Virus record (IMG/VR): IMGVR_UViG_3300030012_002628
Span: 1-52,184 of that record
Length of the DNA stretch: 52,184 bases
From: a virus
Taxonomy: Duplodnaviria; Caudoviricetes
Strand: one strand, 5' to 3'
Every line of letters starts with the position of its first letter. Position 1 is the stretch's first letter. The notes beneath the pieces were generated by a model. That model did no database searches. It saw only the letters and a program-made list of their open reading frames with translations, and was not told the origin of the DNA. The position numbers were made by a program, and so were the translations under genes. Positions 1-52,184 of this stretch are shown piece after piece.

Positions 1-2
1 CA

Positions 3-113
3 CCTTTCTCTTGTTCTAAAGATTCTTTTTATGTTGATTACATGTCAATGCATGCAGCAGCAAAAGATTCTAATATTAAATTTAAAGTTAATCGCAAACG
101 ACTAAGACACTAA
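3..113 (+). CDS. 3' fragment of a CDS truncated by the window start
   Basis: Open frame PFSCSKDSFYVDYMSMHAAAKDSNIKFKVNRKRLRH ends with TAA at 111-113, 1 nt before the ATG at 115. Confidence 0.55.
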   Translation, partial: PFSCSKDSFYVDYMSMHAAAKDSNIKFKVNRKRLRH

Positions 114-114
114 T

Positions 115-3100
115 ATGGCTACTGTAACTTCATCACAACGAAAACTTACGCACACTTCTGGGACTTATCAGAGCAGTGGTAATATTACTGTAGGTGGTCA
201 TATAATTGTATCTGGTAATGTAGACGGCAGAGATGTCGCTTCTGATGGTTCAAAGCTGGATGGCATTGCTGCTAACGCAAACAATTACTCGCTACCACTT
301 GCCTCTTCTTCTACTAGAGGTGGTGTTAAGATTGGGTATTCCGAGAACGGAAAGAACTACCCAGTCGAACTCTCATCTGAGAAGATGTATGTAAACGTCC
401 CTTGGGTTGATACCAATACAACTTACTCAGTAGGAGATGGTGGACTTACTGAAAACAATTTTACCGACGCACTTAAAAATAAATTAGATGGAATTTCCGC
501 TGGTGCAGATGTAACGCCTACTTGGGTTCCGTCTAGTAATCCTAGTTACGCTACTCAATCGTATGTTACGACACAGATAAACAATCTAGTTGATGGTGCT
601 CCAGCAGCTCTAAATACTCTTAACGAGTTGGCAGCAGCAATTGATGATAATTCAAGTTATGCTTCCTCAATAACTTCCGCACTTTCGGGTAAGTTAGGAG
701 TAAGTGCCAAAGCTGCTGATTCAAACCTTCTTGATGGTATTGATAGTTCTGCATTCTTGAGAAGTAATGCAAACGATGATTTCTCAGGAACATTAAACTA
801 CACCCCTGACACTGGAACCATTCTGGCTGTCGATGGGCAAGCTATCCTTCAGAGGATGACTGCTAATGGTGCTATCACGATTGGTCATGACGATGCCGTT
901 ATCATTGCAGGTGGAGACACATCAACAGTATTAAATTCTAATATCAACAATGCAGGCGAAACCGTTTTTGTTGGAGCAGAAGGTGGATTCATTGCTTATG
1001 CATTTCCTAATAACAATACAGCTTGGAGTAATAGGAAAGAATTAAAATGGAATGGAACCGATCTTTCTGTCTTGGGCTACAATGTTTGGCATAGCAATAA
1101 CGATGGATCTGGTTCTGGGTTAGATGCGGATAAACTTGATGGCTTACACGCCTCATCTTTCAATCAAACAATTGGAACAGACACCGATCTTTCTGCCTCT
1201 GGGGCTAGTGTTATTTCTAGCATTAATGTTACTGATGGCGTTATTACATCGATGGGTACTAGGTCACTGACTTTGGCAAACCTTGGTTACACTGGAGAAA
1301 CGAATGCAACCGCAGATCAAACAGCAGGTGAGATTAAGACACTTCTACAGACTGTTGATGGTAGTGGATCTAATATAGATGCCGATTTATTAGATTCCAA
1401 ACATTTAGCAGACATCATACCCAAGCCTTCTCAAAGTGACTTTGCTGATGGAACTCTTGTAACAACATCAATCGATGCCAGCGTCACTAACGGTGAATCT
1501 TTTGTTATTGAGGTATCTGGTAAAAGTTACAGCTCATCGGTTCCTCCGCACATGGCTATTGCCCAAGGGTACATATATAATAACACCATTATAAATTTCT
1601 CTGGTGTTAATATTACTGGGAATACCTTTACAACTATTAAGGCTATGAACAATAACGGTTACCTATCTTTCTGGTGGCCGAGACACGCATATTGGAATGC
1701 CTATAATGTTCATGTTCGAAAGATGAACGGAACATCAACAGGGGGTGATAATGAAGTTACTTCTATTGCTAACTCAACAGAACCATCTGGGGCTACAAAG
1801 AAAGTAACAATTAACTTAGCTAAGACTTGGAACTCTTACAGCGATGGTTCTGGTTCTGGGTTAGATGCAGACAAACTTGATGGTTTACACGCTTCATCCT
1901 TTAACCAAGTAATTGGAACGGACGCTGACCTCAATACTTCTGGTTCTGCTATTATAGATAACATTAATGTTACTGATGGTGTTATTACATCGATGGGTAC
2001 TAGGTCGTTAACTTTGGCAAACCTTGGTTACACTGGAGAAACGAATGCAACCGCAGATCAGTCTGCTAGTGAGATTCTTAATCTTCTCAAGACTGTCGAT
2101 GGGTCTGGGTCTGGATTAGACGCAGACACACTTGATGGAGCGCAACCTAGTGCTTCTGCAAGTAATTCCACTATCGTTAAAAGACACAGTAGTGGTTATA
2201 TTTATGCTAATTATTTTAATACAACAGCAAATGACGTTAGCTCTGGAGTGACGAAAGTCATGGTTGAAACAGGCAACGACGGATTCATAAGACACGGAAG
2301 TGCAGCAGCAATTAGATCATTTATTAATGTTGAGTCTGGTGCGACAGCAGATCAATCAGCTAGTGAGATTCTTACTCTTCTCAAGACTGTAGATGGAGCA
2401 GGATCTGGTTTAGACGCAGACACTCTGGATGGGATTACATCCGCAAGAATTCCTTATGCTCTTACTGGTAGTAATGGAACAACTAACACATATACTGTTG
2501 ATGGTGGAATAGGGGCTAACAACATTACACGTTCGATGTTCTTTAGGGACAACGCACAAACTTTCGGTGCTCTAGGTATGCACATTACACACGCTACTAG
2601 CACCGCCTATGCTTTCCAGTTTGTTAATAATAGTTACTCCACTCCAAGTGCTCTTAAGGCACGGGTCAAAAATAATGGCACTTGGTCGAGTTCCGTAGAT
2701 ATTTGGAATAGTGGGAATGATGGTTCTGGTTCTGGGTTAGATGCAGACAAACTTGATGGTCAGCATGGGTCTCATTACTTAAATTATAATAATTTTAGTA
2801 ATACCCCTACAATTCCTACTAACAATAATCAGCTTTCCAACGGTGCTGGTTATGTAACATCAAGCGGTAATACTGTTATCGGAACAGACTCTGACATCAA
2901 TACGTCTGGTGCTACGGTTATAGACCAGTTGAACATGACAGATGGTGTCATAACTTCACATTCTACAAGGACACTGACTCTTGCAAACCTTGGTTATACT
3001 GGAGCGACTAATGCTAATAATTATGTTTTGCCATCCAGCATATCTTTAAACTCGCTAACTGTTGATAACAACAAGATTGATACTGATGGAACATTTGGAA

Positions 3101-3882
3101 CATCCTATGGTTCCTATGGCATAGGAACAACGAATCTACAAAATGGACACCACAGGATTTTTGCGAAACCTAGTGACCATATGTATTTTGCTGCTGCTAG
3201 TAGTAAAGGTTTTCGGTTTAGACCGAACGGAGGAAGCTCTAGTGGTGGGGTGCAGAGTGCGATCACTAGTGCAGGAAACTTTGCGATAGGTGCTACAAGT
3301 GCTTCGAGTAAGTTAGCTGTTAATGGGGGTGTCGCTGTCGGAGGCAGTTACACTGGAGTTTCCGCTCCCTCTAATGGAATGGTTATTCAGGGTAATGTGG
3401 GTATAGGAACTAGTTCTGTATCGGGTTACTACGCCTTACAAGTTAATGGCAGCATTCAAGGTTCTTATAAGAGTTTTGTAATTGATCACCCCACCAAAGA
3501 GAAAAAGCAGCTTGTTCATGCCTCTCTTGAGGGGCCAGAGATTGGCGTATACTTCCGAGGTAAGAACACTACCGACACTATAACTATGCCTGATTATTGG
3601 GACGGTTTAGTAGACCTTGATTCTATGACAGTAGAGCTTACAGCTATTGGAGGCAATCAATCTCTATTTGTTGCATCTATGGAATCCAACGGAGATGTTG
3701 TTGTCGGATCAAATACCGATGAACCTTTGAATTATTACTACGTTATTTACGGAGAAAGAAAAGATATTGATAAGCTTGCAATAGAGGTTGACATTGAAGA
3801 AAATGAGGTTGAAGTAATTGAAACCCCCGAACCTGAAGTCGGGTCAGTTGATTACATAGACGCTGAATTATCTAATGCTTGA
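115..3882 (+). CDS. Long tail fibre protein with repeated modules
   Basis: 1255 aa and G/S/T/N-rich. Has repeated DGSGSGLDAD(K/T/L)LDG and VTDGVITS..LTLANLGYTG motifs, the fibre motif GAPAALNTLNELAAAI, and a C-terminal KSFVIDHP...LEGPE domain common at fibre ends. Confidence 0.9.
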   Translation: MATVTSSQRKLTHTSGTYQSSGNITVGGHIIVSGNVDGRDVASDGSKLDGIAANANNYSLPLASSSTRGGVKIGYSENGKNYPVELSSEKMYVNVPWVDTNTTYSVGDGGLTENNFTDALKNKLDGISAGADVTPTWVPSSNPSYATQSYVTTQINNLVDGAPAALNTLNELAAAIDDNSSYASSITSALSGKLGVSAKAADSNLLDGIDSSAFLRSNANDDFSGTLNYTPDTGTILAVDGQAILQRMTANGAITIGHDDAVIIAGGDTSTVLNSNINNAGETVFVGAEGGFIAYAFPNNNTAWSNRKELKWNGTDLSVLGYNVWHSNNDGSGSGLDADKLDGLHASSFNQTIGTDTDLSASGASVISSINVTDGVITSMGTRSLTLANLGYTGETNATADQTAGEIKTLLQTVDGSGSNIDADLLDSKHLADIIPKPSQSDFADGTLVTTSIDASVTNGESFVIEVSGKSYSSSVPPHMAIAQGYIYNNTIINFSGVNITGNTFTTIKAMNNNGYLSFWWPRHAYWNAYNVHVRKMNGTSTGGDNEVTSIANSTEPSGATKKVTINLAKTWNSYSDGSGSGLDADKLDGLHASSFNQVIGTDADLNTSGSAIIDNINVTDGVITSMGTRSLTLANLGYTGETNATADQSASEILNLLKTVDGSGSGLDADTLDGAQPSASASNSTIVKRHSSGYIYANYFNTTANDVSSGVTKVMVETGNDGFIRHGSAAAIRSFINVESGATADQSASEILTLLKTVDGAGSGLDADTLDGITSARIPYALTGSNGTTNTYTVDGGIGANNITRSMFFRDNAQTFGALGMHITHATSTAYAFQFVNNSYSTPSALKARVKNNGTWSSSVDIWNSGNDGSGSGLDADKLDGQHGSHYLNYNNFSNTPTIPTNNNQLSNGAGYVTSSGNTVIGTDSDINTSGATVIDQLNMTDGVITSHSTRTLTLANLGYTGATNANNYVLPSSISLNSLTVDNNKIDTDGTFGTSYGSYGIGTTNLQNGHHRIFAKPSDHMYFAAASSKGFRFRPNGGSSSGGVQSAITSAGNFAIGATSASSKLAVNGGVAVGGSYTGVSAPSNGMVIQGNVGIGTSSVSGYYALQVNGSIQGSYKSFVIDHPTKEKKQLVHASLEGPEIGVYFRGKNTTDTITMPDYWDGLVDLDSMTVELTAIGGNQSLFVASMESNGDVVVGSNTDEPLNYYYVIYGERKDIDKLAIEVDIEENEVEVIETPEPEVGSVDYIDAELSNA
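1101..1319 (+). repeat. Internal direct repeat, copy 1 (about 220 bp), in the tail fibre gene
   Basis: Largely identical at DNA level to 1842-2060 (offset 741 nt), e.g. cattaatgttactgatgg..ttattacatcgatgggtactaggtc..actttggcaaaccttggttacactggagaaacgaatgcaaccgcagatca. Confidence 0.9.
1842..2060 (+). repeat. Internal direct repeat, copy 2, in the tail fibre gene
   Basis: Matches copy 1. Further partial copies lie near 2345-2432, 2718-2760 and 2870-3003. Confidence 0.9.
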
Positions 3883-10614: not shown

Positions 10615-11147
10615 GCAGAAGAAAATTACCCCAACACTTTAAAAGATCTAACGGTATGTTGGTCTTTACGCCTACTAGTGACCATGTCAAAGAGGCTTTT
10701 GAGCGTAGTGAAAAGCTAGGAGTTCTACCTAATTCTTTCACCAGAGGAGCGGGGCGTATGACTGGTTTCTTGGGTGAGGTTGCTTTTGAGTGTTTGTATC
10801 CTGAAGCTGTTTATGAAGGGGATGTGGCGTATACTCATGACTACGTGCTTGGTAAAAAGACGATAGACATAAAATCAAAAAGCTGTGCGGGAGTTCCTCA
10901 ACCCCACTACACAGCTTCTGTGAATTGTCCTGAAGGAAAGAAATTACCTGCTAAAGCTTATTTCTTTGTTCGCGTTCGTAAAGATTTCCAAAAAGCTTGG
11001 CTACTTGGGTGGGCCACAGCTCTTACTATTCAAAAAAGAGCTGAATACAAACTTCGTGGTGAGCCAGATGATTATGGGTTTACTTACAAAGTTGATGGAT
11101 ATCATCTTCCAATAGCTGCACTTAGAAAGGCTGGTTCTCTAAAGTAG
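10611..11147 (+). CDS. PD-(D/E)XK nuclease-fold protein
   Basis: GFLGEVAF...HD..LGKKTIDIKSK...YFFVRV...LLGW. Confidence 0.6.
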   Translation: MSRRKLPQHFKRSNGMLVFTPTSDHVKEAFERSEKLGVLPNSFTRGAGRMTGFLGEVAFECLYPEAVYEGDVAYTHDYVLGKKTIDIKSKSCAGVPQPHYTASVNCPEGKKLPAKAYFFVRVRKDFQKAWLLGWATALTIQKRAEYKLRGEPDDYGFTYKVDGYHLPIAALRKAGSLK

Positions 11148-13299
11148 TCTCCTCATAGTCAATGTCGAATGGGGAGGTAACATCTATTATCCATATCTTG
11201 CCACTTCCTTTACCCACAGACTTTATAGGTCTAGTAGTTTTACTATGCTTTCCAACATCCTCTAGATGAGATAAACCATTTCTAATAAAGTCAATCTTGT
11301 TGGATGCTCCTAATGGACGGCCACCATTATATGAGTGCAGAGCTACTTGAAGTTCTAATATTGTTCCCCGCCATGTAGCCATCTTTTCGTTCTGCTCTCT
11401 ACACGCTTTCGCGAAAAAGTCTATGAGTTCAGATACTTGAGATCGACTAGAGTTATCAAAGGCAGCGTAAGAAATACTCTTATCGATAAAGCTCTTAATA
11501 CCAAATCGATCATCGTCTAGTATCTCTACAGGAGGCTTCCACTCCATAAGCCATTTAGCAAAATGGGGTAACTCCTGTTCGATGATAGCTTCTAACTCTG
11601 CCTTTTTAGGAAAGTCAAAAGGTTTCTTGCAAACCTTAAACGCCATAAGTTTATCTTTGTTGCTAGAGTCCATAGTCGGCAGCACACTCATAGAGTTGGG
11701 ATCATCGTTAAGACTAACGATTATCCTGCCCGCCCAAGGAAGAGTAACTGCATCTGCATACTTGGCCATGAACTCGATTCTTGGATTAGCAACTCCACGC
11801 TTAATAAGCTCTGTAGCTTTACGTTGATCTTGGAAAGAAGCAGCACTAACTGTGTCATCAATAACCCAGCAAGCAGCTCTACCTAAGTCTTTATTAAACT
11901 TTGTTCCACCAGACAGGTAGTCACTTGCATCTGCGAATCCCCCCACAAGGGCTGCAATAATCTTATTAGATACAAGTGTTTTACCTCTTTTGGCAGGGCC
12001 AACTAAAATACAAGCCTGACCTTGATCCTCTTGGTTGTTGTAGAAAGCTTTGTAGTATCTTTGTAACCACCCAAAGAAATAATACTTACTCCGAATCTTC
12101 GTAGAATCTACAAAGAACTGATCGAAAAACATATTAAGCCAAGGCCACTTGTCAGGATCTCCATCAGATGCAGGTTCTATCGGACACACTGTAGCTGAGT
12201 TGAGGATCTGCAAACCGTTGTAGGAAACAATCCTTTCGTTTCTTCTAAAGACTACGGGGGCGATCTCATCAATTCTGTTCGTATTACTTATAAGAACAAT
12301 AGCTGCTTCAACTTCAGATACGTTTTCTCCTTTCTTGGGTCTCCCTCCTTTGAATCCTCTTTGCTTTAACTCTAATACCAATTGATCTCTAGGTATAGGT
12401 TTCGCTGTTCCATGTAACAGTTTAAAGAACTGTCTACCGTTAAACCAATACTCATCAAGAAGATCGCCCATCTTTTGCTCTTCAAAGTCTTTGACAAAGT
12501 CAGGGCCAAAAATATCTCTCCATGTTTTCCAAGCTGCGTCACGATCTGAATAAACAATCATGCCATCTTCAAATACCTGACAACCTTCTCTCTCAATCCC
12601 GTCATCGATCCAGAAGAGAGGGCCTCTTGAACCTACTTCAAAGTCTCCTATCCATCTGTTGGGGAATCTCTTTTCTACCTCCTCTGCAATAATATCAATC
12701 GGAATAGATGTATCCTTTGATTCTGGGGGCTTCTCTTTAGCTGCTTTAAATAAAGCTGTTTGAACAATAGAGCTAGGAATCTTACCACCCATCTTTACCC
12801 AATCTGTTCCTATCTCCATCAACTGAGAAGGGGCTTCTGACTTTTTGTCATACCCAGCGAAGATCTTGTGGTATTGAAGCATCTGCTTTAGATGCTTAAA
12901 GAATGGAGTTACTAGTGTGTAGTGGATAGACAGCGTCTCTTCTAATTCAAAGAACAACCGTATGTATCCACTATATGTCCTGCAATACCATGCTGGAAGA
13001 GCTTTCGGACACTTCGCATTGATGATGTCTTTTACATTCGGCCAATCAGGTGGGGCATCGAAGTCTGCTGGGATCGCGTGGATCTTACATATTTTGTTTT
13101 CCCCTTCAATTCGTGCATTTGGATTTATGCCCTCGAACCCTGTTAAGAAGGCATGATCTGTATCACTCTTAGCACACCATTCTCTATATAAAGCTTTTGA
13201 TTTAAAGTGGGGTATTGGTTTTACTTCGATCTCTGTTGGATCGTTTACTGTTATTAAAGCGTCTTTTGATTTTAAGTTTTTAAGGTATTTAATTTTCAT
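11122..13299 (-). CDS. Primase-helicase (primpol-like N-terminus plus P-loop NTPase)
   Basis: N-terminal ADFD and RTYSGYIRL; Walker A GPAKRGKT; Walker B VIDD; adjacent to the DNA polymerase. Confidence 0.75.
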   Translation of the reverse strand: MKIKYLKNLKSKDALITVNDPTEIEVKPIPHFKSKALYREWCAKSDTDHAFLTGFEGINPNARIEGENKICKIHAIPADFDAPPDWPNVKDIINAKCPKALPAWYCRTYSGYIRLFFELEETLSIHYTLVTPFFKHLKQMLQYHKIFAGYDKKSEAPSQLMEIGTDWVKMGGKIPSSIVQTALFKAAKEKPPESKDTSIPIDIIAEEVEKRFPNRWIGDFEVGSRGPLFWIDDGIEREGCQVFEDGMIVYSDRDAAWKTWRDIFGPDFVKDFEEQKMGDLLDEYWFNGRQFFKLLHGTAKPIPRDQLVLELKQRGFKGGRPKKGENVSEVEAAIVLISNTNRIDEIAPVVFRRNERIVSYNGLQILNSATVCPIEPASDGDPDKWPWLNMFFDQFFVDSTKIRSKYYFFGWLQRYYKAFYNNQEDQGQACILVGPAKRGKTLVSNKIIAALVGGFADASDYLSGGTKFNKDLGRAACWVIDDTVSAASFQDQRKATELIKRGVANPRIEFMAKYADAVTLPWAGRIIVSLNDDPNSMSVLPTMDSSNKDKLMAFKVCKKPFDFPKKAELEAIIEQELPHFAKWLMEWKPPVEILDDDRFGIKSFIDKSISYAAFDNSSRSQVSELIDFFAKACREQNEKMATWRGTILELQVALHSYNGGRPLGASNKIDFIRNGLSHLEDVGKHSKTTRPIKSVGKGSGKIWIIDVTSPFDIDYEETTLENQPF

Positions 13300-15089
13300 T
13301 TTTCATATCTGTCTTGTATTGATCCTTCTGCGTCTACGGGTATATCGTCAATCCATTTAGGGGGTTCCGACATAATTCTAATGACTTCTTCTAAAGTCTC
13401 TTGTGCTTTATCGGCATCCGATTCCACAACTAGTTCATCATGAACGTGCATAATTATTTTATGACCTGCTGCATCAACTCTTAGGAGCATATCAGAAAAG
13501 ATATCTCTCGCTAATGCTTGAGAGGCATTCTCTGCTACTAGACCTCCCCATAATCTGACGGCTGCATACTTGCCGTGACGAGGGACTTTAGCCGTGTATT
13601 GTGTGTTCTTTGGGTCTCCCCCTTTTTGCAGAGTCCCGTAATCTAAAACTCTCCCGCTTGGAAGTTTGACAGTGAATTCAGATTGAAGCTCATTGCCGTC
13701 TTTATCGTATCCTTTTGTAGCACGAGTAGATGCTGCAATATCTTCACTATAGGAGAACCAAAGATCCTTAATCTTCTTCATCTTGTTCCTGTAAGTATCC
13801 ACTCTTTTCTGAGCTTCCTTTTCTGTGATGTTAGACATACTCGCAAATCGTTTTGCTCCCGCCCCATAACCACAACCTAAGACCATCGCCTTAACAGCGT
13901 GTCGTTTTTCTGGGTCTTCTTTTTTAAGTATGCCATCCTCTTTATCCCACATCCCAAATCTGATGGCAAAGGCTTCGTAGATATCATCTGTGTTTTTAAT
14001 CTCCTCCATCATTTCGCGATCCTTAGCTAACCAGCAAAGTGTTCTTACTTCAATCTGAGAAAGGTCTACCACGATTAATTTTTTGTCAGGTTCGGGGCAA
14101 ATTAAATGGCGTAGGGTTACACCAAACATCTCATCCCTCGGTAAGTTCTGTAAATTGAGGTTACCCCCAGATCCACTAAATCTACCCGTGTGTGCTCCAA
14201 AATACATACATCCACCGTAATATCTACCGTCGGGCATGGTGGCGTAATCAAAGCTCTCTAGTTTCTTTTTGATGGAGTTTATTCTTCTCCAGTTCTTAAC
14301 AGCTCCTATCCACTTGTGTTGTTCGCTATGCTCCTTGATCCACTCTTGGGCATCTTCATCCGCTTCCGCGAGACTTACTGGTGGTTCAATACCAAGCAAT
14401 AAACACTGCTGATCAAAAGCTGCCCTACTAAGAAGGGGTTTCTCATCCAACCAAGGGATGTTTTCTTCGGCTTCAAATAAAGCTTTGTTGATTGTCTCTA
14501 ACTGTTTCTTTAGAAGTTCAGTATCAATTGGAATGCCTCTTTGAACTATCCTTCGATTTACCCGACTGATGTCCCTTTCAAACTGAGGCCATTTATCTTT
14601 AAGTGTCTCCCATAGCTTGAGACATAGTTCACTATCCTTGAGGGCATATTCACTGACCTCTTCTTTAAACTCTGGGGACATATCCTCCCATCGTTTACCA
14701 GACATATTGTCTCGTGTAGATTTGTCTACAGAGAGATTGAAGAGTTGAGCCGTGGATCCTTTTAATGATCTAGGTAACTTGCAATATGCTGCTAGGTCTG
14801 CAGTGCAGTGCCATTCTGCTGGTTCACAATTAGGCCACCAGTTACGGGATACACCATACAGGAACAAGGTTTCATCAAAGGAGGCATTGTGTGACAGCAC
14901 AATATTGCCATCCAACAAACTCCAATCAAAATCTTTCGGATGACCTACAAAGCTTGTCCCCTCTGTTCCAACGACGGATACCATGTAGGCATCGAAGTTG
15001 GGGTGACTAAAGTATCCCAAAACTCCTAGAGTTTTTATTGAGCATTCTTTGTCATAGTAGGTTTCGTAATCTAAAGCAAAAGTTTCCAT
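13296..15089 (-). CDS. DNA polymerase family A with 3'-5' exonuclease
   Basis: Exonuclease motifs DYET, HNASFD and YALKD; TGRFSG, NLQNLP, motif A DLSQIEVR, motif B R..VK...LGCGYG, motif C VHDE. Confidence 0.95.
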   Translation of the reverse strand: METFALDYETYYDKECSIKTLGVLGYFSHPNFDAYMVSVVGTEGTSFVGHPKDFDWSLLDGNIVLSHNASFDETLFLYGVSRNWWPNCEPAEWHCTADLAAYCKLPRSLKGSTAQLFNLSVDKSTRDNMSGKRWEDMSPEFKEEVSEYALKDSELCLKLWETLKDKWPQFERDISRVNRRIVQRGIPIDTELLKKQLETINKALFEAEENIPWLDEKPLLSRAAFDQQCLLLGIEPPVSLAEADEDAQEWIKEHSEQHKWIGAVKNWRRINSIKKKLESFDYATMPDGRYYGGCMYFGAHTGRFSGSGGNLNLQNLPRDEMFGVTLRHLICPEPDKKLIVVDLSQIEVRTLCWLAKDREMMEEIKNTDDIYEAFAIRFGMWDKEDGILKKEDPEKRHAVKAMVLGCGYGAGAKRFASMSNITEKEAQKRVDTYRNKMKKIKDLWFSYSEDIAASTRATKGYDKDGNELQSEFTVKLPSGRVLDYGTLQKGGDPKNTQYTAKVPRHGKYAAVRLWGGLVAENASQALARDIFSDMLLRVDAAGHKIIMHVHDELVVESDADKAQETLEEVIRIMSEPPKWIDDIPVDAEGSIQDRYEK

Positions 15090-15099
15090 AATTTAACTT

Positions 15100-15224
15100 T
15101 ACCCCGCCCCCAATTAGTGAGCAATGATGCTAATAGGGGACGGGGTATATGTTATTGGGCTTTTATGCGCTTACCCAAGGGCGGATGACTAACCAGTGTG
15201 ATATAAACACCGACGCATTACCAG
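15100..15224 (-). ncRNA. Candidate cis-regulatory structured RNA (pseudoknot plus hairpin) in the DNA polymerase leader
   Basis: Crossing stems AUGCGU/GCGCAU and UUGGGU/GCCCAA, inner stem CGGUGU/ACACUG, then a long GC hairpin 10 nt before the ATG. Confidence 0.6.
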
Positions 15225-15225
15225 A

Positions 15226-15447
15226 TTAATGTAGGCTGTTTCCTTCAACATAATCCTCTGTAGGAGCAAGTTCCAAAAAAGTCTCCTTATGGATATCCTG
15301 AAGATTCTTCTCAAGCCCTTGTAAAAGAATTTTATTAGCAGTCAAAGCAGTCTGTGAATTTTCCAGAACTGACTCTAACTCCTGAATCGTTTTCTTCATG
15401 GCTTTGATTTCAGCCTCATAAACTTCTTGGTGTGTAAGAGTAGCCAT
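15226..15447 (-). CDS. Hypothetical coiled-coil protein
   Basis: 73 aa with a heptad pattern, in the replication operon. Confidence 0.7.
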   Translation of the reverse strand: MATLTHQEVYEAEIKAMKKTIQELESVLENSQTALTANKILLQGLEKNLQDIHKETFLELAPTEDYVEGNSLH

Positions 15448-15448
15448 A

Positions 15449-16105
15449 TTACTGATTCATAAACCCTTCCACAAATGAGATTACTTCTTTGCTTGGCTCA
15501 TCTTGCGTAATAGCAAGAGAAGGTGCAAACCATGAATACTTACCTCTGGTGATAGCAGAGGAAGTAAGATTCCACAACCTAGTGTGAATTGGTGTAGTCT
15601 TGTTAAATACAGCAAAGGTAGTCAACCTTTTGAAGGTCTGCCTATAGGCATCCTTCGCTACATTAATGCGACCCATAGCGTAGTTCTTCTTACCTAGCGG
15701 AAGAGGGAAAGCCTCAACATCATCATCCCCCTCAAAGAGGAAAGTGATCTCAGCAAATTCAAGGAGGTTATACTCGCTATCCAAAGCTAGTTGATTCTTC
15801 TCTGCTTCAGACCCCGCAATTCTGGGGACATCGTCAGAGTCATAAGGGATATCCTCTCTCCATTGCTTTGTTGCAATCAAAGGAACAACTTTAATAGCCG
15901 TCTCTGGCTGGGCTAATACAATAGACTTATCTAGGACGATAGACCCGTAAGGAGCGGGTTCGCCATCGCGACAAGTAATGTCGCTAGTCTTTTGGACTAC
16001 GTTCACGCGAGGGATGTCAATATCCGAAGCGTCGATTGTGTCTGGCAGTGCTGCTGTTGACAGTGCATTGACAGGTTGGGTTGCTAGTTCAGTTTCTTTA
16101 CTCAT
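15449..16105 (-). CDS. Putative single-stranded DNA-binding protein
   Basis: 218 aa, DIDIPRVNVVQKTS motif, located between the exonuclease and the polymerase as phage SSBs usually are. Confidence 0.55.
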   Translation of the reverse strand: MSKETELATQPVNALSTAALPDTIDASDIDIPRVNVVQKTSDITCRDGEPAPYGSIVLDKSIVLAQPETAIKVVPLIATKQWREDIPYDSDDVPRIAGSEAEKNQLALDSEYNLLEFAEITFLFEGDDDVEAFPLPLGKKNYAMGRINVAKDAYRQTFKRLTTFAVFNKTTPIHTRLWNLTSSAITRGKYSWFAPSLAITQDEPSKEVISFVEGFMNQ

Positions 16106-16143
16106 GTTTCTAGTTTCTTGTTTCTAGTTTCTTGTTTCTTGTT
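16106..16143. repeat. Tandem heptamer GTTTCT(A/T), about 5.4 copies
   Basis: gtttcta gtttctt gtttcta gtttctt gtttctt gtt fills the spacer directly upstream of the SSB start codon. Confidence 0.9.
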
Positions 16144-16147
16144 ATCC

Positions 16148-17263
16148 TCAAGACAATGTATGCCTTGCGGGAGATTCTTCGATGATCCCTTGGTCATTGC
16201 ATCTCTGCATAAACTCATCGGATCTGTTTTGCTTTTGTCCCCTCTCGGCTTTGTCACCGATTGACTTCGCCACTTTCGCGAGAGGGATGGAAACTTGTTC
16301 TAAGACTTGATCGCTGTCCAATCCAAAGTCGTTAGCCAGCTTAATAAATTTCTTTTTGTCTGTAATGTTACGCCTACCCGCCATTTGTTTCAGGCGAAGG
16401 TTAGGGAACTCCAGACCTTCTTGAGCTAATTTGATTGCTCTTTTCTTAAATCCGTCCGCCCAATTGGTAACGATTTTTTGTATAGCCCACAGTTGCTCTA
16501 TAACTTCTGGGTCTTCCGTAGAATCGAGATCAACATCAGGAAGTTGTGGGTTAATTTTTTTAGCAACTTCTACAACAAGTCCCCCAAGAGCAGGGCAAAT
16601 GTCTTCAAACTTACAGAATCTACAATTAACCGTTGGCGTAAGCTCTCCCAATTCTGGAGTTCCATTATCCCACTTTGGCCTAACTCTTTCTGCTTCGAGT
16701 ATGACAGAAGAAAGATCGTCGATAAGGTCTTCTAATTCATCTCTACTAAAAGTGTCAGATAAGATTTCATTCCGTTGTGGGATGAAAAATACGAATTCAA
16801 TCTTTTCTAATTTAGGGAACCTCTGGAAACACCCTATTGTATAAGCACGAGCTTGATAATTATTTTTGGGAGTGTCGATCTTACTGATACCCGTTTTGTA
16901 GTCGATCAACACCCCCTCTGTTTCCCCATATATGCTGAGATGGTCACAGGTTCCAAAGGTAGAAGTTCCTTTCAATTCTATATCGAGGATAATTTCTGAG
17001 TGAGTCTCAGATAGATCTCTATCTTCGTAGTTCTTCAAATACTCAGTCTGGTCAGCAATGATTTCTTCGTAAATAGAAATCTCTTCTTCAGACTGTAGAT
17101 TAGATGGATCTAAAATTTCTATAGCTTCGTGGATACGAGTACCCATTTCAGCAGCAGCATTAGTACCTTCTCTACCTTTGTAGCCAGCGCAACCCGCACA
17201 GTATTTTAAGGAGGACGGAGAAAACTCAGCGTGTCCTCTGTCAGCGTGGTCTGGTATGTTCAT
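16148..17263 (-). CDS. DUF2800 / Cas4-like PD-(D/E)XK exonuclease
   Basis: HAEFSPSS..C, GT.IH, GTCD, IDYKTG, CRFC....CP; start set at ATG 17263 from promoter spacing. Confidence 0.85.
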   Translation of the reverse strand: MNIPDHADRGHAEFSPSSLKYCAGCAGYKGREGTNAAAEMGTRIHEAIEILDPSNLQSEEEISIYEEIIADQTEYLKNYEDRDLSETHSEIILDIELKGTSTFGTCDHLSIYGETEGVLIDYKTGISKIDTPKNNYQARAYTIGCFQRFPKLEKIEFVFFIPQRNEILSDTFSRDELEDLIDDLSSVILEAERVRPKWDNGTPELGELTPTVNCRFCKFEDICPALGGLVVEVAKKINPQLPDVDLDSTEDPEVIEQLWAIQKIVTNWADGFKKRAIKLAQEGLEFPNLRLKQMAGRRNITDKKKFIKLANDFGLDSDQVLEQVSIPLAKVAKSIGDKAERGQKQNRSDEFMQRCNDQGIIEESPARHTLS

Positions 17264-17270
17264 CAGACGC

Positions 17271-17299
17271 ACTGTGGAGCAAACCTAGAATTAGGTCAA
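17271..17299 (-). promoter_or_regulatory. sigma70-like leaderless promoter
   Basis: TTGACC-N17-CACAGT, 7 nt before ATG 17263. Confidence 0.5.
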
Positions 17300-17307
17300 T
17301 TGTTTTT

Positions 17308-17793
17308 TCAATTTTTTTGTGTGTCCCTGTAATAACGGGCAACAAGGAATGCATCGACCATTCCGTCATGGGGTTTACGACACCTTTTATTTTTTAACCA
17401 ACACTCTTTTGGGGCCAGCTCTTCTGCTTTGGCGATAGCAGCTTGCTTGGTCATTCCTTTCCCAATGAATCCCAACATTTTCTTTTGCCATTTATGAACA
17501 GATATTCGTTGGACATCATATTCATTTGCTTCCGCCATTCCCACAATCTTTCCAAAAGACAACGCCATAGACCTTACAGCTTGAGAACTCTTTGCATGAG
17601 CTAGTGGCTCTTCGATGGCAATAGTAAAAGGTGTGTTAAGAAACAGAATCCATTTCTTTAAAGCACGAGTATCTACTTCTCTCTTTTTGAGAACCCATTT
17701 TGTGGGCATTACAATCTTGTCTATAACCGACCCATCGAATTTAGATACAGCGCAAAGTCCTCCGTCTAATCCGTTGTCTATTCCTATGATCAA
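17308..17793 (-). CDS. RuvC-like Holliday junction resolvase
   Basis: IIGIDNGLDGG, IAIEE, SFG, KWQK and DGMVDAFLVA. Confidence 0.85.
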   Translation of the reverse strand: MIIGIDNGLDGGLCAVSKFDGSVIDKIVMPTKWVLKKREVDTRALKKWILFLNTPFTIAIEEPLAHAKSSQAVRSMALSFGKIVGMAEANEYDVQRISVHKWQKKMLGFIGKGMTKQAAIAKAEELAPKECWLKNKRCRKPHDGMVDAFLVARYYRDTQKN

Positions 17794-18023
17794 AATAAAT
17801 TTAAAGTAATGATTAAACCGTCCCCTTCTGCGGGAGCGTATATAAATACATTCTTGGGGAGAGCTTGTAAAAAGAAAACTTCTTTTGCAGTGGATGGTAG
17901 AACTCTATAGAACGCTCCTTCTAGTTGTTTGATTGAGAAACTAAAGTCTTCCTTCAAAGGATCATCTTTTCTTATGATCACTTTGGGGTTGTGAATAAGC
18001 TCTTTGTCTCTGAACAACGTCAT
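17790..18023 (-). CDS. Hypothetical protein
   Basis: ORF within the operon; start moved to the TAATG-coupled ATG at 18023. Confidence 0.6.
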   Translation of the reverse strand: MTLFRDKELIHNPKVIIRKDDPLKEDFSFSIKQLEGAFYRVLPSTAKEVFFLQALPKNVFIYAPAEGDGLIITLNLF

Positions 18024-18361: not shown

Positions 18362-18935
18362 TGTCTATAATGGTTCCTTCTCCTCTATCGGCTTTCTTGT
18401 TATTAAGAATAGATATATCTATCTGCATTTTACTAGATGCTCCCCCTCCTGTTTTAGAATTTAATCCTAAATTTCTTCTTATGAGTTGATCTAACTCAGA
18501 TAGTTCTCTCACTGTCTTAGGCCCTTTTAAGTTGTTCATATTGTCCCTTAAAAGTTTAATTCCCGCAGCAGCGATGTAGTGCTGATATTTATCAGCGGGA
18601 CTACTTTGACTATCTGCGATCTCCATCATCGTTTGATCTTCTTCCATGCGAGCATCATGCTTTGCTCTAAGAACAGCTTCGTCGGTCATGTTCTCTAAGT
18701 TTTGCTCTATGTCTTGCCCTAATTTATCTTGGCATTGTTGTGCTACAGGTTCATGTTGCACTTTCTCCGACATCTCCAGACCATTTTTTCTGGCTGGTAT
18801 CCCCCTTTTTTTAAACCAACGTCTTACTGTTCCTGCATGAACACCCAACTCCTTCGCAATCGAACTTGTCTTCCAGTCTAAATTATACAATTCGACTGCA
18901 CGTTCTTGAATTTCTTGTTTGGAATTGATACCCAT
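18342..18935 (-). CDS. HTH protein, probable terminase small subunit
   Basis: N-terminal HTH (SIAKELGVHAGTVRRW), helical oligomerisation region, C-terminal QIDISIL; adjacent to TerL. Confidence 0.55.
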   Translation of the reverse strand: MGINSKQEIQERAVELYNLDWKTSSIAKELGVHAGTVRRWFKKRGIPARKNGLEMSEKVQHEPVAQQCQDKLGQDIEQNLENMTDEAVLRAKHDARMEEDQTMMEIADSQSSPADKYQHYIAAAGIKLLRDNMNNLKGPKTVRELSELDQLIRRNLGLNSKTGGGASSKMQIDISILNNKKADRGEGTIIDIEPNDK

Positions 18936-18964
18936 TTTTTTCTGATTTATTGTTTATAATAATT

Positions 18965-20752: not shown

Positions 20753-20777
20753 CTTTTAATACAAAATACATTAAATT
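20749..20777 (+). promoter_or_regulatory. sigma70-like leaderless promoter
   Basis: TTGACT-N17-TAAATT, 6 nt before ATG 20784. Confidence 0.7.
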
Positions 20778-20783
20778 TAGGCT

Positions 20784-40266: not shown

Positions 40267-41235
40267 TTAGGATTCAGGAATCCATTCCTGCAAGGGGCAT
40301 CCAAGAATATGCTCACAAGCTCTTTGAGCTTTGCCCCCTGCAATCAAGAGCATTTTAGGATCGTCTTTTAATTTAGAAATCCATCCTTTCACATATGCTG
40401 CACTGTTGTTCTGTTCATCTTCTCCCCAACATCCTGTAATTAGTGCGAGCATTGCAGCGCCTAATTCAGCGACAAGTTCCTCCCTTGAATAGCTTTGAGT
40501 TCCAAAGCCTTTAATATCTGTAATCTCTTTTCTGGCCAATCTCTTTTCATGGCCTGTTGAATGAACCAATTCATGGAATAAAGTTTTATAAAAAGACTCC
40601 GAATTTTTCCATTGTTCCATTAAGGGCATTTCAACAAGGTCTCTTGACGGGGAATAACAAGGGCTTTGACCGTCTCTTTTTAGCTTCATTTCAAGGGCGG
40701 GCGGGTTTTCGAAATTAGTCCAAACTTGCTCAGCTCTTGCAATTGCCTGATTTTTGCGCTCGGTCTCGGTCAATTCAGGGGCGGGGGCTTCATCGGGAAA
40801 GTCAATTCCTTCGATTTGTTCGGCATTCCAAACAACGAATTTTGACACGTAAAAGACTTTGGAATGAATGGCGGGGTTTTCTTTGCCTTTAGAAACGGGC
40901 TTGCCGTTTTCATCTTTCCACGCAATTCCCCATTTCAAACACTTTGTACCCTTTTCACCTTTTCTTACTTTGCCCCCTAATTTCTTGATCCCGCCCCATG
41001 GCAACCAATATCTTGAACTATAGCCTTGCATCAAGAGGATGAAGATATTCCCGCCCTCGTATTCTTTGCCCGTGTCAAAGTTCATCGGAATTGCAAAGAC
41101 TGAACCGATGTTCTTACTTGAACCGATCCATTTTTTAGACCATGGAACAAGGTTTTTATCTTGCATTTTATCTGTGATGATTTCCATCACTTCATCTTGC
41201 GGGGAACTTTTTTTTGCTTTGGTTGCTGTATTCAT
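40267..41235 (-). CDS. ardC: ArdC-like antirestriction protein (ssDNA-binding plus zincin domain)
   Basis: PW, Y.G.N..LL, GGKVRKGEKG, WNAEQIEG, FHELVHSTGH..RL.R, YSREELVAELGA and SAAYV.GW. Confidence 0.9.
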   Translation of the reverse strand: MNTATKAKKSSPQDEVMEIITDKMQDKNLVPWSKKWIGSSKNIGSVFAIPMNFDTGKEYEGGNIFILLMQGYSSRYWLPWGGIKKLGGKVRKGEKGTKCLKWGIAWKDENGKPVSKGKENPAIHSKVFYVSKFVVWNAEQIEGIDFPDEAPAPELTETERKNQAIARAEQVWTNFENPPALEMKLKRDGQSPCYSPSRDLVEMPLMEQWKNSESFYKTLFHELVHSTGHEKRLARKEITDIKGFGTQSYSREELVAELGAAMLALITGCWGEDEQNNSAAYVKGWISKLKDDPKMLLIAGGKAQRACEHILGCPLQEWIPES

Positions 41236-42176: not shown

Positions 42177-42449
42177 ATGGCAGATAAGGCTAGTCTCAGA
42201 AAACGCTTACTTAAACAAGCTGGGGTATCAGGTATGGGAAAAGCCAAAAGAACACCCAATCATAAAACAAAATCTCATGTTGTTGTAGCTAATTGCAATG
42301 GCAAGCCAAAGCTAATCAGATTCGGGCAACAGGGTGCAAAAACCAATCAAAACGCTAAACAAAGGAAAGCGTTTAAAAGTAGACACCGTAAAAATATTGC
42401 TAAAGGCCCATGTTCCGCTGCTTATTGGGCAAACAAAGTTAAGTGGTAA
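42177..42449 (+). CDS. Small basic phage protein
   Basis: KLIRFGQQG...RKAFKSRH...SAAYWA.KVKW, a family recalled as common in aquatic phages. Confidence 0.75.
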   Translation: MADKASLRKRLLKQAGVSGMGKAKRTPNHKTKSHVVVANCNGKPKLIRFGQQGAKTNQNAKQRKAFKSRHRKNIAKGPCSAAYWANKVKW

Positions 42450-42631
42450 TGAAAAAGAAGAGTAAGTCTAGAGTAAACGAAGCAGGTAACTACACCAAGC
42501 CAACTATGCGTAAAAGATTGTTCCAACGCATAAAGGCGGGTTCTAAAGGAGGCCCTGCTGGAGTTTGGTCGGCTCGAAAAGCACAGATGCTTGCTCGCGA
42601 ATACAAGGCAAAGGGAGGAGGATACAGGTAA
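42449..42631 (+). CDS. Small basic protein resembling the N-part of DUF5872-containing proteins
   Basis: YTKP.MR......IKAGSKGG..G.WSARKAQMLA.EYK.KGGGY. Confidence 0.7.
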   Translation: MKKKSKSRVNEAGNYTKPTMRKRLFQRIKAGSKGGPAGVWSARKAQMLAREYKAKGGGYR

Positions 42632-49089: not shown

Positions 49090-49109
49090 TTATTAATATA
49101 AATATTAAC

Positions 49110-49151: not shown

Positions 49152-49159
49152 ATAAAACA

Positions 49160-50502: not shown

Positions 50503-50507
50503 TAGGA

Positions 50508-51140
50508 ATGCCTACTTCTATAAATGGGACAGTACGTCTTTCTTATGGGAATCACATTCATACTGAGAATTTTGATTCTACAACAACAGCATATGGTGCA
50601 ACTAATCAAACTGGAAATTATTCCGCAGGGGGTGCAAGAGCTGTATATAGTGCAACTACGGGAGTTACTATTGATTTAGGAACCATTGATTCTGATGAAG
50701 GATTGCTTCTTATTAAGAATGTAAACACCGCGGGATCTCTACTGGTTAGTATGGATGGCGGGTCTAACTGGGATATTAAGATTCATGCAGGACACGCGAA
50801 TCTTATTTCTGTAGGCCCTGATCACCCTGTTCATGTAAAAACCAATGCTGCTGACGCGGACATTGGAGTTAACTCTGTGTCTACATCAGGAGCAATCACC
50901 TTTGATTCTAATATATCTTTTGCAGGAACATATGTAATGAATGCAAAAACAAGCCCTGATCACACAAGTGGCCCGTTTTACATTGTAAAGACTACTTCGA
51001 ATAATGTTTCAACTGGGATTGCTTATGCACTCGACGGAACTACTAAGAAGGATTTAGCCACAGGCAATGTATATACTGAAAATACCACAGTAACTTTAAA
51101 AGAAATTGCTGACTATAGGTTTACTTTAACTGAAGGATAA
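50508..51140 (+). CDS. Putative structural protein (beta-rich)
   Basis: 210 aa, T/G/S/N-rich, first gene of the tail operon. Confidence 0.55.
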   Translation: MPTSINGTVRLSYGNHIHTENFDSTTTAYGATNQTGNYSAGGARAVYSATTGVTIDLGTIDSDEGLLLIKNVNTAGSLLVSMDGGSNWDIKIHAGHANLISVGPDHPVHVKTNAADADIGVNSVSTSGAITFDSNISFAGTYVMNAKTSPDHTSGPFYIVKTTSNNVSTGIAYALDGTTKKDLATGNVYTENTTVTLKEIADYRFTLTEG

Positions 51141-51142
51141 GT

Positions 51143-51583
51143 ATGGCAAATATTCAACTACAGAGAGGACAACAACAAGCAATTGAAGTTACTTTCAAAT
51201 TGGCTAATGGGGACATCCCTAATTTCAATTCCGAAAACGACAACAATGCTAGTGCGGGGACTTTTGACGCAGAATTAGTAATAAGGAAAAAAAGAGGGGA
51301 TAACTTTCAAGGACAGATTATTGATGTTCTTAGGCATGGTGTCACATCAGGCTTTGCGGTCTCTGAGGCAGATAGTAGGATTTCTTTTACAGGCACTGGA
51401 GGTGCAGCTTCTACAACACTAAGTAGTGGGCATAATATAGTTCTTAATTGGAACACTGCTCAAGCTACGCTTTTGCCGAACGAAGCGATCACTGTTTTTG
51501 GAGACCTCAAAGTCACTAAGTCATCCGAAGTCGTACATCACATTCGACTTGCGTTTGATATACTACCCGAAATTACAGCATAA
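51143..51583 (+). CDS. Putative tail-fibre-associated structural protein
   Basis: 146 aa, beta-sandwich-like pattern, coupled to the fibre gene. Confidence 0.5.
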   Translation: MANIQLQRGQQQAIEVTFKLANGDIPNFNSENDNNASAGTFDAELVIRKKRGDNFQGQIIDVLRHGVTSGFAVSEADSRISFTGTGGAASTTLSSGHNIVLNWNTAQATLLPNEAITVFGDLKVTKSSEVVHHIRLAFDILPEITA

Positions 51584-52184
51584 TGGCGAACGAAACAGTC
51601 ACAGTAAACCAGTCTACAAACTCTATAACAGTAACTCAATCGACGAATAACGCTTCGGTTGTTGCTGTTAACCCGCGAGCGGGGTTGGGGTCAGGGGGGA
51701 CTGTTCAAGGAAGTCTAGATATAACACAAAACCTAGACGTTGATGGTATTTTAGAAACTGATGCTTTAACTATAAACGGAGTTTCTCTTGCGGAAACAGT
51801 CCAAGATGTAGTTGGAGCTATGGTAGGTAGCAATACTGAAACAGGTATTGCTGTGTCTTATGATAATACCGATGGCACTTTAGACTTTGTGGTCTCTTCT
51901 CAGACCGACAATAACTTTACTACAGCCTTAAAACAAAAACTTGAGGGCATAGATGCTGGAGCTAAAGACGACCAGACACCAGCAGAAATCCTCACCGCGC
52001 TTCTGACAGTTGATGGGGTGAGTTCTGGCTTAGATGCAGATTTACTTGATGGGCAGCACGCATCAGCCTTTCAAGCTGCTGGTACATATAATACCAACAT
52101 TGGTACAAGTGATGACATAAGTTTAACTGGCACTGGAGTTATTGACGGCCTAACACTTACAGATGGTGTTATAACTGATTCCTC
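51583..52184 (+). CDS. Second tail fibre protein, truncated by the window end (not in the ORF track)
   Basis: MANETVTVNQ...NNFTTALKQKLEGI...DQTPAEIL..L.TVDG.SSGLDADLLDGQHASAF...LTDGVIT, the same repeats as 115..3882. Confidence 0.85.
   Translation, partial: MANETVTVNQSTNSITVTQSTNNASVVAVNPRAGLGSGGTVQGSLDITQNLDVDGILETDALTINGVSLAETVQDVVGAMVGSNTETGIAVSYDNTDGTLDFVVSSQTDNNFTTALKQKLEGIDAGAKDDQTPAEILTALLTVDGVSSGLDADLLDGQHASAFQAAGTYNTNIGTSDDISLTGTGVIDGLTLTDGVITDS

What the first reader, a model, noticed from the sequence alone, without database searches (positions are those of the whole stretch)
1..52184. Pro-Gly dipeptide missing from the proteome: apparent loss of CCNGG sites
Seen: I found no PG dipeptide in the large proteins I read through (3353-aa protein, fibre, polymerase, primase, TerL, portal, MCP, helicase, ArdC) and noticed no CCNGG in the DNA. 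Established: Pro-Gly (CCN GGN) always creates CCNGG, so synonymous change cannot remove the site. Motifs I recall as containing PG are altered here: RuvC GIDPG reads GIDNG (near 17775), DUF5872-type GGKPGQW reads GGPAGVW, and DUF2800 CPG reads CAG. Rough expectation at 40% GC is about 80 sites. Inference: a host ScrFI/SsoII-type CCNGG restriction system has selected strongly enough to change protein sequence.
Basis: partly seen in the sequence, partly recalled or inferred. Interest (0 to 1): 0.85.

Follow-up and report, generated by a model that had tools for sequence, protein, structure and literature searches.

The report
Phage clade that bans Pro-Gly
This marine phage and its relatives have removed every CCNGG site from their DNA, so their proteins cannot contain proline followed by glycine, which suggests that pressure from bacterial DNA-cutting enzymes can rewrite protein sequences across a whole viral lineage.

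Summary
The 52,184-base contig, an uncultured marine phage, has 0 CCNGG where 93-100 are expected, and 0 Pro-Gly where about 45 are expected. The selection acts on DNA. CCNGG is also absent in the two codon phases that do not spell Pro-Gly: 0 against 42 in synonymous shuffles. Near-cognate words occur at expected levels.

Relatives support CCNGG as the target. Loci that keep 10-26 CCGG sites still have 0 CCSGG and 0 CCWGG. Across 31 loci of the clade there are 6 CCNGG against 1289 expected and 4 Pro-Gly against 495. Of the 10 residual sites, 8 are Pro-Gly codon pairs. A Pro-Gly kept by all seven outgroup loci in the terminase small subunit became Ala-Gly or, in other lineages, Pro-Ala, each by one base change.

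The window also lacks CCGG, GGWCC, GCSGC, CGSCG, CYCGRG, GGYRCC and GRCGYC. Relatives carry different sets.

No host or enzyme was identified. Restriction avoidance is known. I found no report of it removing a dipeptide from a proteome.

The parts
1..52184 (.). Whole phage contig free of CCNGG, CCGG, GGWCC, GCSGC, CGSCG, CYCGRG, GGYRCC, GRCGYC and CCTNAGG, and therefore free of Pro-Gly in every reading frame
   Evidence: Counts. Expectations. Pro-Gly 0 against 45.6 expected.
18831..18836 (-). Ala-Gly (GCA GGA) in the helix-turn-helix of the terminase small subunit-like protein (gene 18342-18935), at the position where the outgroups have Pro-Gly
   Evidence: VHPGT (CCN GGN) in L025, L027, L030, L031, L033, L034 and L035. 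VHAGT in the window and 17 relatives. VHPAT in L021, L022 and L039. HTH_23 and Terminase_5 Pfam hits.
17183..17188 (-). Ala-Gly in the CAG motif of the DUF2800 / PD-(D/E)XK nuclease (gene 16148-17272)
   Evidence: PF10926, E = 9e-22. CPG in L025 and L027, CAG or CSG in the CCNGG-free clade, CGG or CSG in L029, L033 and L034.
42548..42568 (+). GGPAGVW motif of a conserved 60-62 aa protein (ORF 42443-42631, phrog_17747); non-avoiding cultured phages read GGKPGQW
17770..17784 (-). GIDNG at the N-terminus of the RuvC-like resolvase (gene 17308-17793); this is family-wide and is not evidence of Pro-Gly loss
   Evidence: phrog_1770, E = 1.7e-13..
40267..41235 (-). ArdC-like protein (ArdcN plus zincin peptidase), a possible further anti-restriction function; context only
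   Evidence: PF08401 E = 3.6e-19; PF18818 E = 1.5e-29.
13296..15089 (-). Family A DNA polymerase, used as the marker to fetch and place relatives

Best explanation
The bacteria this phage lineage infects carry a restriction system that cuts unmethylated CCNGG, most simply a single ScrFI/SsoII/DsaV-type type II enzyme. Every CCNGG site in incoming phage DNA risks cleavage, so the lineage has purged them all and keeps purging new ones. Sites in codon phases 1 and 2 were removed by synonymous changes. Sites in phase 0 are Pro-Gly (CCN GGN) and have no synonymous escape. They went last and only by amino-acid replacement, typically one base change to Ala-Gly or Pro-Ala. The result is a Pro-Gly-free proteome across a clade whose polymerases have diverged to about 70% identity. 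The window's own lineage later met further systems (CCGG, GGWCC, GCSGC, CGSCG, CYCGRG, GGYRCC, GRCGYC and others) and escaped them synonymously. Shown: the counts, the phase pattern, the clade distribution and the substitutions. Inferred: that the selecting agent is a restriction enzyme, and that it is a single one.
For: 1. DNA-level selection. CCNGG in phases 1 and 2 is 0 against a mean of 42.4 (lowest 27) in 200 synonymous shuffles. Phase 0 is 0 against 45.1 in codon-order shuffles.
2. Specificity. CCNGC, GCNGG, GCNGC, CTNGG, CCNAG and other near-cognates occur at 0.87-1.35 of expectation.
3. CCNGG rather than CCGG plus CCWGG. L002 has 25 CCGG but 0 CCSGG (13.4 expected) and 0 CCWGG. L022 (23 CCGG; 10.7 expected) and L039 (26; 11.5) show the same pattern.
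4. Clade-wide. 31 loci, 523,482 bases: 6 CCNGG against 1289 expected, and 4 Pro-Gly against 495. 30 of 37 tree rows score as avoiding.
5. Residual sites. 8 of 10 are phase-0 Pro-Gly codon pairs: L037 has 3, L007 1, L030 1, L031 1 and L035 2. The 2 in L024 are phase 1.
6. Two different one-base escapes at one ancestral Pro-Gly.
7. Synonymous escapes wherever one exists. 27 of 27 Gly-Pro pairs use GGG or GGC. 118 of 118 Ala-Ala pairs start with GCT or GCA. No TCC, ACC or GCC precedes Gly.
8. Intermediate states in cultured phages. In HMO-2011 CCWGG is 0/65 and all 28 Pro-Gly use CCG or CCC. In CRP-1 CCNGG is 12/79 and Pro-Gly 12/44.5; in CRP-345 the figures are 7/73 and 7/39.6. CRP-9 and CRP-603 encode a C5-methyltransferase and keep CCWGG.
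9. A mirror case. In L037 GGNCC is 9/65 and 7 of the 9 are Gly-Pro codon pairs.
Against: No host is known, and no CCNGG endonuclease or methyltransferase was examined. No tRNA was found, TerL has no relative in genome contigs, and the genome search draws no relatives for a virus record.

In the window itself CCNGG cannot be separated from CCGG plus CCWGG, because CCGG is also 0. CCWGG-only avoidance (HMO-2011) and CCSGG-only avoidance (L028, L029, L034) both exist among the marine phages examined, so two systems could add up to CCNGG.

The loci are overlapping orthologous regions of related phages, so the clade totals are not independent counts. The polymerase tree has no true outgroup, and phage mosaicism may decouple it from the flanking genes. 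The RuvC example did not hold.
Confidence: 0.8

Rival explanations
1. Two separate restriction systems add up to CCNGG: a CCWGG-specific one (EcoRII/BstNI-type) plus a CCSGG-specific one (NciI/BcnI-type), or plus a CCGG-specific one in the window's own lineage. Pro-Gly is lost only where both act.
For: HMO-2011 has CCWGG 0/65 while CCSGG is 30/19. L028, L029 and L034 have CCSGG 0/17-19 while CCWGG is 6. CRP-1 has CCGG outside CCSGG at 0/33 and CCWGG at 11/61, and its 12 CCNGG sites match its 12 Pro-Gly pairs, 11 of them on CCT or CCA. The window has CCGG outside CCSGG at 0/42.
Against: Among the 30 tree rows scored as avoiding CCNGG, none keeps one half of the motif at a normal level. Other avoided motifs flip 3-6 times on the same tree. 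A single determinant is the simpler reading.
Confidence: 0.3
2. The agent is not a classical type II enzyme. It could be a methylation-dependent (type IV) nuclease in one host acting on CCNGG sites methylated in a previous host, or some other DNA-targeting defence with this word as its target.
For: Passages of Rusinov et al. 2018 (PMC6286503) note that the type IV site SCNGS overlaps CCNGG. The phage encodes no methyltransferase among the ORFs scanned.
Against: The other words of SCNGS are not depleted: CCNGC 92/91.5, GCNGG 135/113.6, GCNGC 140/103.9. All the other purged words are the short, often degenerate palindromes that I recall as typical type II sites.
Confidence: 0.08
3. Selection is on the protein: Pro-Gly itself is harmful, for example as a target of a host protease or a cause of ribosome stalling, and the lack of CCNGG is a by-product.
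For: Pro-Gly is 0 against 45.6 expected.
Against: CCNGG is equally absent in phases 1 and 2, where it does not encode Pro-Gly: 0 against 42.4 expected. HMO-2011 keeps 28 Pro-Gly and only switches codons.
Confidence: 0.01
4. Mutational decay rather than selection: host methylation of CCNGG followed by 5-methylcytosine deamination erodes the sites.
For: None specific.
Against: The expected products are not enriched: CTNGG 160/169 and CCNAG 132/146. The replacement at the ancestral Pro-Gly is C-to-G or G-to-C, not C-to-T, and no Pro-Gly to Leu-Gly appears among 22 aligned cases. Decay would not give an exact zero or override a conserved residue.
Confidence: 0.02

Closest known systems
Restriction-site (palindrome) avoidance in phage genomes (Sharp 1986; Karlin 1992; Rocha 2001; Rusinov et al. 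2018, PMC6286503)
   Same: Short palindromic words typical of type II enzymes are depleted far below compositional expectation in a double-stranded DNA phage, and the set of words differs between lineages.
   Different: Here the purge is absolute for at least nine words at once. For CCNGG it goes beyond synonymous change and removes a dipeptide from the proteome of a whole clade. The passages I read treat avoidance as synonymous (Callens et al. 2021, PMC8410138) or do not mention amino acids at all (PMC6286503: 0 occurrences of 'amino acid', 'synonymous' or 'dipeptide'). The older papers are recalled, not read.
ScrFI / SsoII / Ecl18kI / DsaV-type CCNGG restriction-modification systems
   Same: The recognition word matches the purged word, including indifference to the central base.
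   Different: No such enzyme or host was identified here. The enzyme names and specificities are recalled from memory, not taken from a call.
Cultured marine phages of SAR116 and RCA roseobacters (HMO-2011, CRP-1, CRP-345)
   Same: They share the small conserved protein. They show intermediate states of the same conflict: CCWGG is purged, and Pro-Gly is either kept on CCS codons or reduced to the few remaining sites.
   Different: They are not close relatives. TerL and the primase find no match among named phages, and the polymerase hits listed there are under 31% identical. These phages still keep 7-28 Pro-Gly. The passages read from the RCA phage paper (PMC6918029) do not discuss site avoidance.
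Total loss of AGCT in clade A pandoraviruses (bioRxiv 10.1101/712018)
   Same: A short palindromic word is absent outright from a large viral genome under stringent selection.
   Different: That is a eukaryotic virus, the authors tested and rejected a restriction model, and 'dipeptide' does not occur in the text (passages read).

Membership tests
Type II restriction-site avoidance by a phage | The word is a short palindrome depleted far below compositional and codon-aware expectation | tested here: met
   CCNGG is 0 against 93-100 expected. It ranks first of 992 palindromic motifs.
Type II restriction-site avoidance by a phage | Depletion is independent of reading frame (a DNA-level signal, not a protein-level one) | tested here: met
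   Phases 0, 1 and 2 are all 0. Phases 1 and 2 together are expected at 42.4 under synonymous shuffle.
Type II restriction-site avoidance by a phage | Depletion is specific to the word and does not extend to one-base neighbours | tested here: met
   Twelve one-base near-cognates occur at 0.87-1.35 of expectation.
Type II restriction-site avoidance by a phage | The host encodes a cognate endonuclease and methylase | not testable with these tools
   The host is unknown. No tRNA, no relative in genome contigs, and no relatives drawn for a virus record.
Target is CCNGG (ScrFI/SsoII-type) rather than CCGG plus CCWGG | CCSGG and CCWGG are both absent where CCGG in other contexts is present | tested here: met
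   Met in relatives: L002 has 25 CCGG, 0 CCSGG and 0 CCWGG, and L003, L004, L006, L011, L020-L023 and L039 show the same. It cannot be tested in the window itself, where CCGG is 0.
Target is CCNGG (ScrFI/SsoII-type) rather than CCGG plus CCWGG | A single determinant rather than CCWGG plus CCSGG systems | tested here: inconclusive
   No clade member avoids only one half, but single-half avoidance exists outside the clade: L028, L029 and L034, and HMO-2011.
Forced amino-acid replacement by site avoidance | An ancestral Pro-Gly is replaced in avoiders and kept in non-avoiders at the same column | tested here: met
   TerS helix-turn-helix: Pro-Gly in 7 of 7 outgroup loci, Ala-Gly in 18 clade rows (window included) and Pro-Ala in 3. 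RuvC: not met. DUF2800: mixed.

The most novel reading that the evidence does not exclude
Restriction pressure imposes 'forbidden dipeptides' on phage proteomes as a general rule: CCNGG bans Pro-Gly, GGNCC bans Gly-Pro, and GCNGC would ban Ala-Ala. Here a ban has persisted across a whole abundant marine phage clade while its polymerase diverged to about 70% identity. The ban forced repeated, convergent amino-acid replacements. If the rule holds, a phage's protein sequences would carry a readable record of the defence repertoire of its uncultured hosts.
Probability: 0.55. Interest if true: 0.8.

Novelty: new variant of a known kind. Interest (0 to 1): 0.7.

Why it matters
Restriction avoidance is usually treated as a matter of silent codon choice. 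Here one defence specificity is associated with the loss of about 45 Pro-Gly pairs per genome, and about 495 across the sampled loci. Pro-Gly is a common turn-forming dipeptide (recalled), and the state has held through long divergence. That gives a natural measure of how strong restriction selection is compared with protein constraint.

The mosaic of at least 15 purged words among close relatives points to a very diverse restriction repertoire in the hosts of an abundant marine phage group. It also suggests a practical use: zero counts of specific words and dipeptides could predict host restriction-modification specificities for uncultured phages. The cultured phages CRP-1, CRP-345 and HMO-2011 offer hosts in which this can be tested.

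Tried and rejected
1. My first reading was that CCNGG is only the sum of CCGG and CCWGG avoidance (after). I dropped it as the main reading when relatives with many CCGG sites showed 0 CCSGG.
2. RuvC GIDPG to GIDNG as evidence: rejected. All 29 relatives with the stretch aligned and 117 of the 120 listed homologues have G[IV]DNG. The search listed only close family members (64% identity or more), so the wider RuvC consensus was not tested. GIDPG is recalled.
3. PDB sequence search with the RuvC-like protein gave only chance hits (E = 0.38).
4. Host search failed: no tRNA, TerL has no relative in genome contigs, cluster look-ups gave no organism names, the sequencing-run search gave only marine metagenomes plus one coded organism, and the genome search does not draw relatives for a virus record.
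5. Named-phage searches with window 1-25000, TerL and the primase found nothing.
7. The assembly-artefact, protein-level and deamination readings were considered and rejected (see the rival explanations).
8. A cyanobacterial host crossed my mind because I recall CYCGRG, GGWCC, GRCGYC, RCATGY, GDGCHC and TTCGAA as sites of Anabaena and Nostoc enzymes. That is recall only, with one sub-threshold Pam3_Gp34 hit, so I do not claim it.
Full report
What the window is. The window is the whole record held for this genome: 52,184 bases in one contig, 41.5% G+C. A greedy ORF set of 62 genes covers 96% of it.

Pfam and PHROG scans identify a tailed phage. They find:
- a family A DNA polymerase (13296-15089, minus strand);
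- a DUF5906 primase-helicase;
- a DUF2800 / PD-(D/E)XK nuclease;
- a RuvC-like resolvase and an SNF2-type helicase;
- an ArdC-like protein and an amidase_3 lysin;
- TerS-like and TerL proteins, and tail fibre proteins;
- an unannotated 3353-aa ORF.

No DNA methyltransferase appeared among the ORFs scanned. No tRNA was found. Named phages hold nothing close: there is no DNA match and no TerL or primase match, and the polymerase hits listed are under 31% identical. The stretch 11001-21000 is held in marine metagenome runs from several studies, so the sequence is real and marine.

The observation. CCNGG occurs 0 times. Expectation is 96 from base composition, 100 from a first-order Markov model, and 93.0 from codon-order shuffles, where the lowest of 200 shuffles gave 72. 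Among 992 palindromic motifs scanned, CCNGG is the most extreme (p <= 1.5e-42).

Pro-Gly occurs 0 times in 16,714 residues against 45.6 expected, while Gly-Pro occurs 27 times. Two cultured marine phages that do not avoid CCNGG give a baseline for Pro-Gly of 48 observed against 50.2 expected and 24 against 30.1.

Is it DNA or protein? Synonymous shuffles keep the protein sequence and therefore cannot create Pro-Gly. They still give on average 19.1 and 23.2 CCNGG sites in codon phases 1 and 2, a total of 42.4 with a minimum of 27. The genome has none. The selection therefore acts on the DNA word, and the absence of Pro-Gly follows from it.

One-base neighbours of the word occur at 0.87-1.35 of expectation: CCNGC, GCNGG, GCNGC, CTNGG, CCNAG and others. 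This rules out a broader SCNGS-type target. It also argues against decay by deamination.

Which word? The window also has no CCGG at all (expected 60-96). Inside the window, CCNGG therefore cannot be told apart from CCGG plus CCWGG. The relatives decide it.

The polymerase retrieved 41 loci from viral contigs, at 96% down to 58% identity. Many of them keep CCGG yet have no CCSGG and no CCWGG:
- L002 has 25 CCGG, and 13.4 CCSGG would be expected given that count;
- L022 has 23 CCGG (10.7 expected);
- L039 has 26 CCGG (11.5 expected).

A two-system alternative (CCWGG plus CCSGG) cannot be excluded, because each half is avoided alone elsewhere. L028, L029 and L034 have CCSGG at 0 of 17-19 expected with 6 CCWGG. 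HMO-2011 has CCWGG at 0/65 with CCSGG at 30/19. However, none of the 30 avoiding rows keeps one half at a normal level, while other words flip 3-6 times on the same tree. That favours a single determinant.

Extent in the clade. I built a quick maximum-likelihood tree of the polymerase with 37 of 42 rows. L032, L036, L038, L040 and L041 were left out because their fragments are under 550 aa. The root was placed arbitrarily on L028, L029, L033 and L034. The tree has a 27-row clade with support 100, in which CCNGG counts are 0-3.

I pooled 31 loci for the clade totals: the window, the 26 other rows of that clade, and four partial loci (L032, L036, L038, L041) assigned by similarity and not by the tree. 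Together they hold 523,482 bases with 6 CCNGG against 1289 expected, and 4 Pro-Gly against 495 expected in ORFs of 100 aa or more. These loci are overlapping orthologous regions, so the totals are not independent counts.

Nucleotide identity between the window and its nearest relative L001 is only 87%. Silent positions have therefore turned over, and sites would have reappeared without continuing selection.

Order of loss. In near-complete avoiders, 8 of the 10 residual CCNGG sites are phase-0 Pro-Gly codon pairs: L037 has 3, L007 1, L030 1, L031 1 and L035 2. The 2 sites in L024 are in phase 1. Sites that can be removed silently go first. Sites locked by the dipeptide go last.

Forced amino-acid change. 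The clearest case is in the helix-turn-helix of the TerS-like protein.
- All seven outgroup loci read VHPGT with CCN GGN: L025, L027, L030, L031, L033, L034 and L035.
- The window and 17 relatives read VHAGT with GCN GGN.
- L021, L022 and L039 read VHPAT with CCN GCN.

These are two different single-base solutions to the same problem. Over all aligned positions where a relative has Pro-Gly, the window has Ala-Gly in 9 of 22 cases. These cases include repeated columns.

- RuvC GIDNG is not evidence. All 29 relatives with the stretch aligned, including tolerant ones, and 117 of the 120 listed homologues read G[IV]DNG.
- DUF2800 is mixed. It reads CPG only in L025 and L027.
- The small protein is supported. 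It reads GGKPGQW in MEP402 and HTVC033P, GGAPGQW on CCC GGT in HMO-2011, and GGPAGVW here. Among the 120 best homologues, 46 keep Pro-Gly.

Other purged words. With first-order Markov expectations, the window has:
- GGWCC 0/55
- GCSGC 0/30
- CGSCG 0/20
- CYCGRG 0/23
- GGYRCC 0/19
- GRCGYC 0/16
- CCTNAGG 0/11
- RGCGCY 1/21
- RCATGY 3/41

Each of these has a silent escape, and the codon data show it being used. All 27 Gly-Pro pairs use GGG or GGC. All 118 Ala-Ala pairs begin with GCT or GCA. No TCC, ACC or GCC precedes Gly. Of the 8 GCSGC sites of L001 that align to the window, 7 differ there by synonymous changes.

Relatives carry other sets of purged words: GTAC, GCWGC, GDGCHC, TTCGAA and ACRYGT. 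The minimum number of changes on the polymerase tree is 2 for CCNGG, 3 for CCGG, 5 for GGWCC and 6 for GTAC.

L037 shows the mirror case. GGNCC is 9/65, and 7 of the 9 sites are Gly-Pro codon pairs. Gly-Pro is 7 against 21 expected.

Cultured comparators. The small protein occurs in phages of SAR116, RCA roseobacters, SAR11 and OM43. These phages display the steps of the same conflict.
- HMO-2011 avoids CCWGG and keeps 28 Pro-Gly, all on CCG or CCC.
- CRP-1 has CCNGG at 12/79 and Pro-Gly at 12/44.5, so essentially every remaining site is a Pro-Gly.
- CRP-345 has CCNGG at 7/73 and Pro-Gly at 7/39.6, with the same implication.
- CRP-9 and CRP-603 encode a cytosine-5 methyltransferase and keep CCWGG.

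Mechanism and confidence. The best explanation is avoidance of a CCNGG-cutting restriction system in the host population, maintained long enough to strip Pro-Gly from the proteome. I put confidence at 0.8 for restriction-type selection on this word, and lower for a single enzyme. The agent itself is inferred, because no host or enzyme was examined.

Literature. Seven searches and passages of five papers gave no report of a dipeptide lost through restriction avoidance. Callens et al. 2021 (PMC8410138) state only that a contribution of nonsynonymous changes cannot be excluded. Subscription journals and supplements were not searched.

Verdict. This is a known kind of process (restriction-site avoidance), seen here in an extreme and apparently undescribed form.

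Noticed in passing
window 22772-32833 (+): A 3353-aa ORF with no Pfam or PHROG match at E <= 0.001. It lies downstream of TerL and two unannotated ORFs. Relatives in 21 loci align to part of it.
   Followed up: no
window 51583-52182 (+) and 115-3882 (+): The last ORF is tail-fibre-like and runs off the 3' end of the contig. The first large ORF is also a tail fibre protein. No terminal direct repeat of 10-400 bases was found. The contig may be incomplete, or broken inside the fibre region.
   Followed up: partly
window 33048-33458 (-): A DUF1599 protein ('nucleotide modification associated domain 1'; E = 1.7e-6). It hints at some DNA or nucleotide modification function alongside the site avoidance.
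   Followed up: no
L037 and L016 (IMG/VR loci): GCWGC is 0 of 34 expected in L037 and 0 of 8 in L016, while GCSGC is enriched (66/26 in L037). This is the reverse of the window, where GCSGC is 0 and GCWGC is 140/74. GGNCC is also nearly purged, with Gly-Pro depleted.
   Followed up: partly
L042 (HMO-2011), L044 (MEP402), L043, L046-L048 (CRP phages): Cultured marine phages show absolute gaps of their own. GATC is 0/129 in HMO-2011 and 0/103 in MEP402. GGCC is 0/40 in MEP402. CGCG is 0 of 24-54 expected in four CRP phages. GDGCHC is 1/89 in HMO-2011.
   Followed up: partly
L025-L027 (IMG/VR loci): The CCNGG-tolerant sister lineage still has only about half the expected CCNGG (33/64 in L027) and Pro-Gly (13/21.2). 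This would fit a recent release from avoidance, but the direction of change is not established.
   Followed up: no
window 42443-42631 (+): A 60-62 aa basic protein that is extremely conserved. At least 7998 database proteins match at E <= 0.001, and the top 120 are 82% identical or more. It is shared across phages of SAR11, SAR116, OM43 and roseobacters. Its function is unknown.
   Followed up: partly
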